Assembly (NCBI GenBank): GCA_963840035.1
Contig: CAWIXE010000002.1
Location: 1,376,001-1,440,000 of the forward strand
Reading direction: 5' to 3'
From: a candidate division FCPU426 bacterium
GTDB taxonomy: Bacteria > Oederibacteriota > PGYV01 > Palsa-1178
Length of the DNA: 64,000 bases
The position numbers and the translations under genes were made by a program. Shown piece after piece: positions 46,126-46,663 of this stretch; positions within the stretch are counted from its first letter, which is position 1, and every line of letters begins with the position of its first letter. Below the pieces are notes generated by a model. It saw only the letters and a program-made list of their open reading frames with translations. It had not been told where the DNA came from and ran no database searches.

Positions 46126-46287
46126 TGGAGCTGATGACCGGAGTCGAACCGGTGACCTACTGATTACGAATCAGTTGCTCTTGGATGCCCTTGCGAGCTT
46201 CAGCGAGCAAATATTAGATCAACGGCCCATCTACTTCTCATCCTGTCAGCCAGTCCTATCGGCTGACACCGGCTGAGCTACATCAGT
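46126..46287 (-). pseudogene. Duplicate tRNA-Thr(CGT) interrupted by an 86-bp insert in the D-loop
   Basis: 46126-46181 identical to the 3' 56 nt of the intact copy; 46268-46287 matches its 5' 20 nt with two changes (including G1>A); insert at 46182-46267. Confidence 0.85.
46182..46267. mobile_element. Small structured insertion element, copy 1
   Basis: Colinear homology with 46569-46653; shared TTGCGAGCTTCAGCGAGCAAATATTA; terminal GTCAG..CTGAC hairpin. Confidence 0.65.
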
Positions 46288-46305
46288 GCTCTGAATTAAA
46301 ATGTA

Positions 46306-46381
46306 TGGAGCTGATGACCGGAGTCGAACCGGTGACCTACTGATTACGAATCAGTTGCTCTACCGACTGAGCTACATCAGC
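46306..46381 (-). tRNA. tRNA-Thr(CGT)
   Basis: 76-nt cloverleaf GCTGATG...ACTGA-TTCGTAA-TCAGT...TTCGACT...CATCAGC-T-CCA. Confidence 0.95.
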
Positions 46382-46434
46382 CCTCAACGGTCATCTATTA
46401 TATACCTTTTTCTTTTTAAAGAACTAAATCTATA

Positions 46435-46510
46435 TGGTGCCGAGAGACGGATTTGAACCGCCGACGCACAGATTTTCAGTCTGTCGCTCTACCGACTGAG
46501 CTATCTCGGC
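46435..46510 (-). tRNA. tRNA-Phe(GAA)
   Basis: 76-nt cloverleaf GCCGAGA...ACAGA-CTGAAAA-TCTGT...TTCAAAT...TCTCGGC-A-CCA. Confidence 0.95.
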
Positions 46511-46557
46511 ACCTATTCGGTATCAGTACATTCGTAGCCAACTATCGCCTTCTAGTC

Positions 46558-46663
46558 CCGACTGAGCTAAGGCGCCATTGCGAGCTTCAGCGAGCAAATA
46601 TTAAATCAATAATCCCTCTACCTCTCGCCTTGTCAGATGCTACTGCATCTGACATCTCGGCAC
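46558..46663 (-). mobile_element. 5' fragment of tRNA-Phe interrupted by copy 2 (46569-46653) of the small structured element
   Basis: Minus strand GT-GCCGAGAT-[85 bp]-AGCTCAGTCGG matches tRNA-Phe nt 1-19. Confidence 0.7.

What the first reader, a model, noticed from the sequence alone, without database searches (positions are those of the whole stretch)
46126..46663. A ~85-bp structured element inserted at T^AG in duplicated copies of two different tRNA genes
Seen: intact tRNA-Thr and tRNA-Phe are bracketed by a full duplicate of tRNA-Thr carrying an 86-bp insert (46182-46267) and a 5' duplicate of tRNA-Phe carrying an 85-bp insert (46569-46653). The inserts are colinear (9+20+34+22/23 nt) and share TTGCGAGCTTCAGCGAGCAAATATTA and an internal GTAG on the minus strand. 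Where they differ, pairing is kept: closing stem GGATG/CATCC versus AAGGCG/CGCCTT, and terminal hairpin GTCAGCC/GGCTGAC versus GTCAGATGC/GCATCTGAC. Both sit between T and AG of the tRNA sense strand (GGT^AG, GAT^AG), that is after CT on the plus strand, with no target duplication. Established: E. coli RAYT cleaves at CT dinucleotides and HUH/Y1 transposition leaves no target duplication. Inference: a non-autonomous, structure-defined mini-element that targets tRNA D-arms and is linked to tRNA duplication (possibly mobilised by RAYT), or an RNA-excised intron-like unit.
Basis: partly seen in the sequence, partly recalled or inferred. Interest (0 to 1): 0.85.

Follow-up and report, generated by a model that had tools for sequence, protein, structure and literature searches.

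The report
Hairpin mini-element invading tRNA gene copies
A gene-less DNA element of about 75-85 bases, found about 100 times across one order of uncultured bacteria, sits mostly at three fixed spots in spare copies of tRNA genes and in the loops of other hairpin repeats without duplicating its target site, and is likely a small mobile element moved as folded single-stranded DNA by an enzyme not yet identified.

Summary
The two inserts belong to a family with 25-26 copies in this genome and copies in 18 of 24 genomes of the order. Of 97 aligned copies, 76 lie in spare tRNA copies beside an intact gene: after nt 8, after the D-loop T, or, in reverse orientation, in the T-loop. Another 17 lie in REP or DUF559-type hairpin repeats, whose empty sites exist in the genome. 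All three helices covary strongly, there is no target duplication, and head-to-tail dimers occur. The site rule is a T before the insert, not T^AG or CT. The GTAG is not conserved (17 of 97). The E. coli RAYT link is not supported: wrong cut register, and 6 of 18 carrier genomes have no Y1 hit. An RNA intron is unlikely. No gene-bearing parent, Rfam family or paper describing it was found. Best reading: a non-autonomous single-strand mobile element with an unidentified enzyme, closest to archaeal SMR/PATE repeats. The scan noted similar tRNA-loop hairpin inserts on other DNA (AI notes, not checked here), but found no sequence look-alike of this one.

The parts
46126..46181 (-). Spare tRNA-Thr(CGT) copy, nt 21-76 (3' of the insert)
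   Evidence: Identical to the intact gene over these positions
46182..46267 (-). Element copy 1 (86 nt), inserted after D-loop T20
   Evidence: R2 61.1 bits
46245..46267 (-). Copy 1 terminal hairpin H1, starting at the first base of the element
   Evidence: 6 of 6 pairs with two-sided changes in the family
46239..46243 (-). Copy 1 P1 5' arm (pairs with 46183-46187)
46191..46210 (-). Copy 1 P3 hairpin with 2x2 internal loop (tandem G.A when read on the + strand)
   Evidence: 63 of 95 distinct rows keep this loop, 21 are fully paired
46183..46187 (-). Copy 1 P1 3' arm, followed by one terminal base at 46182
46268..46287 (-). Spare tRNA-Thr copy, nt 1-20 (G1 to A, T16 to C)
46306..46381 (-). Intact tRNA-Thr(CGT)
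   Evidence: ARAGORN; Rfam RF00005
46435..46510 (-). Intact tRNA-Phe(GAA)
   Evidence: ARAGORN; Rfam RF00005
46511..46557 (-). Spacer between the Phe fragment and the intact Phe gene; resembles the spacers at this site in G093 and G079
46558..46568 (-). Spare tRNA-Phe fragment, nt 9-19
46569..46653 (-). Element copy 2 (85 nt), inserted after T8: H1 46632-46653, P1 arms 46626-46630 and 46570-46574, P3 46578-46597
   Evidence: R2 73.5 bits; spanned by a contig
46654..46663 (-). Spare tRNA-Phe fragment, nt 1-8 plus two leader bases
46750..46778 (-). Sigma-70-like promoter (11 of 12 matches) upstream of the Phe fragment; both spare copies likely lie in the Phe-Thr transcript (inferred)

Best explanation
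The two inserts are copies of a gene-less 75-85-base repeat with three covarying helices that sits after a T in the loops and junctions of DNA hairpins (tRNA genes, REPs, DUF559-type palindromes) without target duplication, and it likely moves as a folded single strand that is cut and joined by an enzyme supplied from elsewhere, most likely with HUH-type (phosphotyrosine, peel-and-paste) chemistry but not the E. coli-type RAYT. Shown: the anatomy, the exact junctions, empty sites, dimers, the T rule and the coupling to tRNA duplication. Inferred: hairpin H1 and stem P1 hold the two ends one base apart, so one platform (P1, conserved unpaired G and A, bulged P3) positions both cuts, and a circle joined last base to first G is the intermediate. 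Also inferred: a hit in an essential tRNA gene survives only as an intact gene plus a dead, interrupted copy, made in the same replication-linked event or by rescue from the sister chromosome. Loss of the 5' T likely traps a copy in place.
For: Family size: 97 copies aligned; 17 of 24 genomes of the order by R2, plus G088 by a half model. Structure: 96.2% of 1576 cells paired, 313 with two-sided changes, 0 of 500 shuffles as high, and the slid controls far lower; the top 12 mutual-information pairs are all in H1, P1 or P3. Only 37 of 1576 cells are wobble-type, split 20/17 between strands, which fits DNA better than RNA. Sites: 38 D-loop, 27 at nt 8/9, 8 T-loop reverse, 3 other tRNA, 15 REP, 2 DUF559 palindrome, 4 unclear (hand-labelled). 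Empty versions of the REP and palindrome sites exist in G000, and the palindrome fills without loss or duplication. The base before the site is T in 37 of 37 correctly paired cognate tRNAs. In the filled copies it is changed in 12 of 37 (11 to a purine), against 0-4 of 38 rows at any other flank position. Head-to-tail dimers occupy single D-loop sites in G093 and G090. G089 has the plain Phe allele, while congeners G090 and G091 have the element plus a duplicated leader and nt 1-26. The REP and palindrome copies in G000 are mostly each other's nearest neighbours, as a recent spread would give. HUH chemistry without flanking duplication and with strand specificity is described for IS200/IS605 (PMC3333891).
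Against: No enzyme was found. No gene lies between element ends. Y1 genes are missing from 6 of 18 carrier genomes and present in 3 of 6 non-carriers. No Y2 transposase matched in 24 genomes, though that control was silent. tRNA-site copies look old, not recently moved: 25 of 60 are closest to the same site in another genome (2.2 expected) and only 7 to another site in their own genome (5.2 expected). Even so they keep the fold (21 compensated against 9 one-sided changes in 17 chosen pairs), which a dead insertion should not do. RNAalifold does not recover P1, and folding energy does not pick a strand. Hits were selected by a model that rewards the pairing, and kin are not independent. One REP copy (L001) and one tRNA-Leu copy (L105) have G before the insert, and the original base there is uncertain.
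Confidence: 0.5

Rival explanations
1. A small GIY-YIG (Ssn-like) single-strand nuclease nicks next to the P3 hairpin, and host polymerase copies the element into a new hairpin loop by template switching. The same event would make the tRNA duplicate and the short inverted echoes seen beside many upstream fragments.
For: A small GIY-YIG query matches 19 of 24 genomes, including all 18 carriers; counts correlate (rho 0.60). On the + strand the element begins 4 bases before the position where a CGTC-type tag would sit, and SsnA cuts a few bases upstream of its hairpin (PMC11893778 section 8). One copy (L015) carries the same tag and stem start as the repeats around the Ssn-like gene of G000. Inverted echoes of the right flank follow many upstream fragments.
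Against: The SRM consensus matches 0 of 53 copies exactly and 1 of 53 with two substitutions, and the tag region is variable. None of 20 GIY-YIG loci carries the element. The co-occurrence rests on two clades that lack both, and the shared gene in family f1 looks like a syntenic housekeeping gene. The paper shows cleavage by SsnA, not joining.
Confidence: 0.2
2. The RAYT or TIRYT (subclass 2.1) Y1 enzymes of these genomes move the element.
For: G000 has 8 Y1 genes and the largest copy number, with copies inside its REPs. The left junction resembles the short conserved motif in the inverted repeats around the ~325-aa Y1 genes of the order. P3 has a mid-stem mismatch, as E. coli REPs do (PMC8266576).
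Against: The cut register differs from C^T, and GTAG is not conserved. No Y1 match in 6 of 18 carriers, including G093 (98% complete, 12 copies) and G077 (99% complete). Rho is 0.08. The motif resemblance is about 6 degenerate bases and was not tested against chance.
Confidence: 0.12
3. The element spread once and is now kept by the host as a structured RNA or DNA signal beside tRNA genes (processing, pausing or a decoy), which is why old copies keep their fold.
For: Copies persist at the same tRNA site across genera and families with compensated changes. One unpaired G (96 of 97) and one unpaired A (93 of 97) are nearly invariant. The window's copies lie downstream of a strong promoter-like site.
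Against: Presence is patchy: 7 of 22 Phe-Thr loci carry a model hit. Orientation is reversed at T-loops, copies sit in intergenic REPs, wobble pairs are rare, and copy number per site varies from 1 to 3.
Confidence: 0.12
4. The insert is an intron-like unit cut out of the RNA, so that the second copies are working tRNA genes.
For: Junctions are exact, and several spare copies are full length with 0-2 mismatches once the insert is removed. The 65 copies at nt 8/9 and the D-loop are all in the sense orientation.
Against: Ten copies are in reverse orientation and 17 are outside tRNAs. Many host copies are truncated or have broken D-arms. An intact gene lies beside the copy wherever the contig reaches far enough. 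No Rfam family other than tRNA passes its cut-off. The window's Thr copy has an A1-C72 mismatch.
Confidence: 0.04

Closest known systems
Short mobile repeats type A (SMR-A) of Haloquadratum walsbyi (PMC3119063, passages read)
   Same: Short, gene-less, no target duplication, inserts into palindromes of other elements, mode of mobilisation unknown.
   Different: SMR-A have prominent inverted terminal repeats and target PATE/IS605 palindromes. This element has a terminal hairpin plus a 5-bp internal closing stem, targets tRNA loops and REPs, and comes with tRNA duplication.
PATEs and IS200/IS605 peel-and-paste derivatives (PMC3119063; PMC3333891, passages read)
   Same: No terminal inverted repeats, no target duplication, hairpins at or near both ends, strand-specific insertion 3' of a fixed base.
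   Different: Only one fixed target base rather than a 4-5-base target; the hairpin starts at the first base; no related IS605/TnpB element in G000.
REP/REPIN/BIME with RAYT, and TIRYT elements (PMC3733652, PMC8266576, PMC6006769, passages read)
   Same: Folded single-strand logic, bulged stem, tandem amplification, same genomes.
   Different: No conserved GTAG at a hairpin foot, insertion not at C^T, no Y1 gene flanked by it. Here REPs are targets, not relatives.
Ssn nucleases and NTS/SRM (CGTC-type) repeats (PMC11893778, sections 8, 10, 12 and passages read)
   Same: The P3 stem resembles the repeats around the Ssn-like gene of G000, and the element end lies near where an Ssn would cut.
   Different: SRM consensus not met; the element has two further helices and defined ends; mobility of SRMs is only a hypothesis in that paper.
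tRNA-targeting integrative elements (attL/attR), and Rickettsia RPE and cyanobacterial SDR repeats (all recalled; Elhai 2008 not held)
   Same: An intact tRNA beside a partial copy (islands); small palindromic inserts in structured RNA genes (RPE, SDR).
   Different: The element interrupts the spare copy rather than lying between two att copies, shares no overlap sequence with the target, and has no integrase beside it.

Membership tests
REP/REPIN (RAYT) | GTAG tetranucleotide at the 5' foot of the hairpin | tested here: not met
   GTAG anywhere in the interior in 17 of 97 copies; columns before P3 are mixed
REP/REPIN (RAYT) | Cleavage and joining at C^T | tested here: not met
   Junctions lie after T on one strand, after CT, TC, CG, CC or TT on the other (PMC3333891)
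REP/REPIN (RAYT) | A cognate Y1 gene flanked by the repeat, present in carriers | tested here: not met
   Flanks of 8 own Y1 genes and 21 long Y1 genes of relatives carry other repeats; 6 of 18 carriers have no Y1 match
REP/REPIN (RAYT) | Hairpin with mid-stem mismatch | tested here: met
   63 of 95 distinct rows; 21 are fully paired
PATE / IS200-IS605 | No target duplication, no long terminal inverted repeats | tested here: met
PATE / IS200-IS605 | Fixed 4-5-base target 5' of the left end | tested here: not met
   Only the last base (T) is fixed
PATE / IS200-IS605 | Ends shared with an IS605-type element | tested here: inconclusive
   No TnpB match in G000; no gene-bearing version among half-model hits; only this order searched
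PATE / IS200-IS605 | Single-stranded circular intermediate | not testable with these tools
   Head-to-tail dimers show the predicted join but are not circles
Classical MITE | Terminal inverted repeats and target site duplication | tested here: not met
   Ends are not inverted copies of each other; no duplication
SMR-A (Haloquadratum) | Prominent inverted terminal repeats | tested here: not met
   Only a 5-bp internal inverted repeat
SMR-A (Haloquadratum) | Gene-less, no duplication, inserts into palindromes | tested here: met
Ssn-related motif (SRM/NTS) | Published degenerate consensus | tested here: not met
   0 of 53 exact, 1 of 53 within two substitutions, both strands
Ssn-related motif (SRM/NTS) | Cut by the cognate Ssn a few bases upstream | not testable with these tools
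   Element end lies 4 bases before the tag position; needs protein
IS110/IS1111 | Shared core dinucleotide at both junctions and a recombinase in carriers | tested here: not met
   No shared core; PF02371 in 4 of 24 genomes, none in G000
tRNA intron / group I / group II | Known intron or ribozyme model; always sense; functional host gene | tested here: not met
   No Rfam hit but tRNA; 10 reverse copies and 17 outside tRNAs; reverse transcriptase in 2 of 24 genomes
tRNA intron / group I / group II | Spliced RNA | not testable with these tools
   No RNA holder listed

The most novel reading that the evidence does not exclude
This is one member of an unrecognised class of prokaryotic mobile DNA that is defined by fold rather than by sequence, carries no gene and has no gene-bearing parent. 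It is moved by a resident enzyme not known to transpose (for instance a conserved small GIY-YIG nuclease acting with host polymerase), enters any DNA hairpin loop after a T, and rebuilds the tRNA gene it hits in the same event, cycling in place at tRNA loci for as long as the order has existed.
Probability: 0.3. Interest if true: 0.85.

Novelty: new variant of a known kind. Interest (0 to 1): 0.62.

Why it matters
Small palindromic repeats that move without target duplication are known (SMR, PATE, CGTC repeats), but for several of them no enzyme is known. This family gives about 100 copies with base-exact ends, strong covariation, empty and filled alleles, dimers and a one-base target rule. 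That makes the missing mechanism directly testable with short oligonucleotides and a handful of candidate proteins from one genome. It would also explain a source of dead tRNA copies that mislead annotation (ARAGORN called one of the window's inserts part of a tRNA) and show how a selfish element can live in essential genes at no lasting cost. If similar elements noted in other lineages share the mechanism, it would be a widespread, overlooked route of transposition.

Tried and rejected
Rfam: no family but tRNA at cut-off in the window region (a CPEB3 ribozyme match at 16 bits against a cut-off of 35 was rejected) or in 20 loci. Phage and plasmid collections: no blastn match to the Phe insert. 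Strict patterns found 1 stretch in viral contigs (a chance match), 6 in the GTDB collection (4 family members, 2 unrelated hairpins) and 13 in metagenomes (6 family members by eye). R2 found 0 of 75 genomes outside the order, with only 49 candidates scored per genome and strict filters; R2 also missed a divergent end upstream of Phe in G081, so absence is not shown. My first idea, that the purine-rich interior is a ribosome-binding remnant of a gene-bearing parent, found no support: no separate halves in G000. Of 20 half-model hits fetched, those not chance were further short copies or variants, none with a gene inside. Enzyme searches: reverse transcriptase 2 of 24 genomes, IS110 4 of 24, Y2 0 of 24 with a silent control, TnpB none in G000. 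The four integrase matches in G000 are two whole genes and one split gene in a foreign-looking stretch, not an integron integrase by eye. A guide that covaries with the target was looked for by eye and not seen; the mutual-information scan covered only columns within the element. The tandem-GA tip was found at 1 of 20 GIY-YIG loci, too weak to use. No RNA holder listed. Eight DNA runs laid gave no contig across the Thr insert. Joints that skip the Phe fragment in relatives have unknown sequence between them and are not counted as empty alleles. The alignment script stopped before its last three loci and missed short fragments, so site classes come from hand labels. Paper searches found no description of this element; most subscription papers are not in the library and no supplements were read.

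Full report
Observation. On the minus strand a promoter-like site (46778-46750, 11 of 12 matches) is followed by a tRNA-Phe 5' fragment split after T8 by an 85-base insert, then intact Phe, intact Thr, a second Thr copy split after T20 by an 86-base insert, and a gene that reads like rpsP (name from my own knowledge). A contig from one public run matches 46494-46821 exactly and spans the Phe insert; it may be the window's own sample. The Thr insert was not spanned by any contig in 8 runs laid, but relatives carry the same arrangement.

The family. BLAST and a profile found 26 matches in the 3.46-Mb genome. A covariance model from 10 copies (R1), rebuilt from 53 hits (R2), found matches in 17 of 24 genomes of the order and 0 of 75 other genomes of the phylum (49 candidates scored per genome, so the zeros are weak). 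A model of the 3' half added G088, giving 18 of 24. R2 gave 97 hits in 83 sources held, which included 7 pattern hits from outside the order, none matched. Median length is 77 bases.

Anatomy, read in the direction of the sense-strand tRNA copies. Hairpin H1 starts at the first base (usually G) and varies in length. One purine follows, then the 5-bp stem P1, a mostly unpaired interior with a near-invariant G (96 of 97) and A (93 of 97), hairpin P3 with a 2x2 internal loop, two or three bases, the other arm of P1 and one last base (C 54, T 34). All three helices covary: 96.2% of 1576 cells pair, 313 show two-sided change, no shuffle of 500 reaches this and slid controls fall to 24-45% paired. 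The alignment was fitted to this structure and kin are related, so these are not probabilities. The 12 top mutual-information pairs are all in these helices and no fourth helix or pseudoknot appears. Wobble-type cells are rare and split evenly between strands (20 and 17), which suits DNA or a strand-symmetric process better than an RNA fold. RNAalifold recovers H1 and P3 but not P1, so P1 is probably not stable alone. The purine after H1 and the last base are linked (A with C 48, A with T 18, G with T 15, G with C 3). In a circle these two bases would face each other between H1 and P1, right at the join.

Targets. By hand labels, 76 of 97 copies lie in tRNA-derived sequence of at least 17 tRNA types: 38 after the D-loop T, 27 after T8, 8 in the T-loop in reverse orientation and 3 elsewhere. 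Fifteen lie in loops of three GTAG-type REP families, 2 in a palindrome whose empty copy follows a DUF559 gene, and 4 are unclear. One spare Val copy in G096 carries elements at all three main sites. For 37 correctly paired cases the base before the site is T in every cognate intact tRNA; the base after is A at sense sites and C at T-loop sites, and G or A in repeats. So the rule is T in an unpaired part of a DNA hairpin, not T^AG. In filled copies this T is changed in 12 of 37, 11 times to a purine, against 0-4 of 38 rows at each other flank position (the purine bias alone gives p about 0.05). I infer that the T is needed for the element to leave and that its loss traps it; an error-prone junction is the alternative. 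There is no target duplication. Two D-loop sites hold head-to-tail dimers.

Link to tRNA duplication. In G000 the direct extra copies of 11 or more bases near tRNA genes are at loci with the element (Ala, Thr, Phe, Arg, Gly; the Met and Lys fragments are split too short for that test), apart from an 11-base Pro fragment. At the Phe-Thr locus, 7 of 22 genomes have a model hit, each with a partial or whole duplicate. G081 has a divergent end by eye, and the other 14 show neither element nor duplicate in the stretch printed. G089 lacks what its congeners G090 and G091 have. Upstream duplicates are 5' fragments, often followed by a short inverted echo of the right flank; downstream ones are mostly near-whole genes. 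Insertion into non-essential palindromes is clean, so duplication is not part of every insertion. At tRNAs it is either made in the same event or required for survival; I cannot separate the two.

Age. Of 60 tRNA-site copies that could match either way, 25 are closest to the same site in another genome (2.2 expected) and 7 to another site in their own genome (5.2 expected). In 17 same-site pairs that I chose, 21 base pairs changed with compensation, 9 on one side and 1 on both sides without it, while unpaired positions differed by 9-62%. So tRNA-site copies are long-lived and keep their fold, which points to renewal in place or to selection. The REP and palindrome copies of G000 look like a recent spread.

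Enzyme. None was found. G000 has 8 Y1 genes with their own REP arrays or inverted repeats, an Ssn-like gene, 3 DUF559 genes and four-helix-bundle genes, but no reverse transcriptase, IS110 or TnpB match. Across the order Y1 genes do not track the element (15 of 24 genomes; missing in 6 of 18 carriers; rho 0.08). E. coli TnpA-REP cuts between C and T (PMC3333891; PMC8266576), not after CT. The left junction loosely resembles the motif in the repeats around the long Y1 genes (TIRYT in PMC3733652), which is a lead only. A small GIY-YIG query matches all 18 carriers and 1 of 6 non-carriers, but this rests on two clades. The SRM consensus is not met, and SsnA is shown to cut, not to join (PMC11893778). 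Base-exact ends, strand specificity, no duplication and dimers fit cut-and-join chemistry of the HUH type best, so I commit to that at 0.5, with a GIY-YIG copy-in route at 0.2.

Comparison and novelty. It works like the gene-less, duplication-free repeats of Haloquadratum (SMR-A, PATE; PMC3119063) but fails a defining feature of each, and of REP, SRM, IS110 and intron families (membership table). Nine paper searches found no description. What I read: sections 8, 10, 12, the first eleventh and passages of PMC11893778; section 16 and passages of PMC3733652; passages of PMC3333891, PMC8266576, PMC6006769, PMC3119063 and PMC2884548; no supplements. Elhai 2008 was not held, and RPE, SDR and att-site comparisons are recalled. 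Earlier scan notes describe similar tRNA-loop hairpin inserts in other lineages; they are unchecked AI notes and not evidence, and sequence look-ups found no look-alike. Verdict: a real, apparently undescribed family, a new variant of a known kind whose mechanism is open and now testable. Interest 0.62.

Noticed in passing
G000, 18 places, e.g. C1:195493-214273: A second, about 30-base hairpin family sits in the loops of REP-like repeats and shares the loop-side tip of P3.
   Followed up: partly
G000:C3:12500-16500: A very GC-rich, frameshifted stretch (integrase, sigma factor and EF-G-like frames) that looks foreign to this 47% GC genome, probably contamination in the assembly.
   Followed up: no
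G000:C3:278123, C3:318423, C2:583921 and L138-L157: About 325-aa Y1 genes with a DnaA-like C-terminal region lie between inverted repeats of up to 29 bases that share a short G-rich motif (TIRYT-like).
   Followed up: partly
L119, L124, L128, L130, L132, L134; G000:C2:73387, C3:492535, C2:1127107: Small GIY-YIG genes and four-helix-bundle genes sit directly behind tRNA or tmRNA genes, each with its own hairpin or short repeats.
   Followed up: partly
window 4708-4947 (-): A RAYT gene with a GTAG-headed REP array lies about 41 kb from the finding; its REP is unrelated to the element.
   Followed up: partly
window 33396-41282 (-): A 2628-aa secreted-looking protein with long threonine-rich repeats.
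   Followed up: no
L008 and L012: Tandem units that keep only hairpin H1 beside full copies, probably decayed or rearranged elements.
   Followed up: no
L073, L074, L076, L080: Metagenome contigs with a unit between a tRNA 3' end and its duplicate that carries 11-base-period direct repeats sharing letters with P3; R2 does not match L073 or L076.
   Followed up: no
L069:2001-2028: A P3-like hairpin inside what reads as the 3' part of an archaeal 16S rRNA gene (identification by eye).
   Followed up: no
G000:C2:1369409: An 11-base copy of the tRNA-Pro(GGG) 5' end upstream of the gene, with no element of this family.
   Followed up: no
L105:77-187, L188, L191: Element copies with other small hairpin repeats nested in or beside them.
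   Followed up: no
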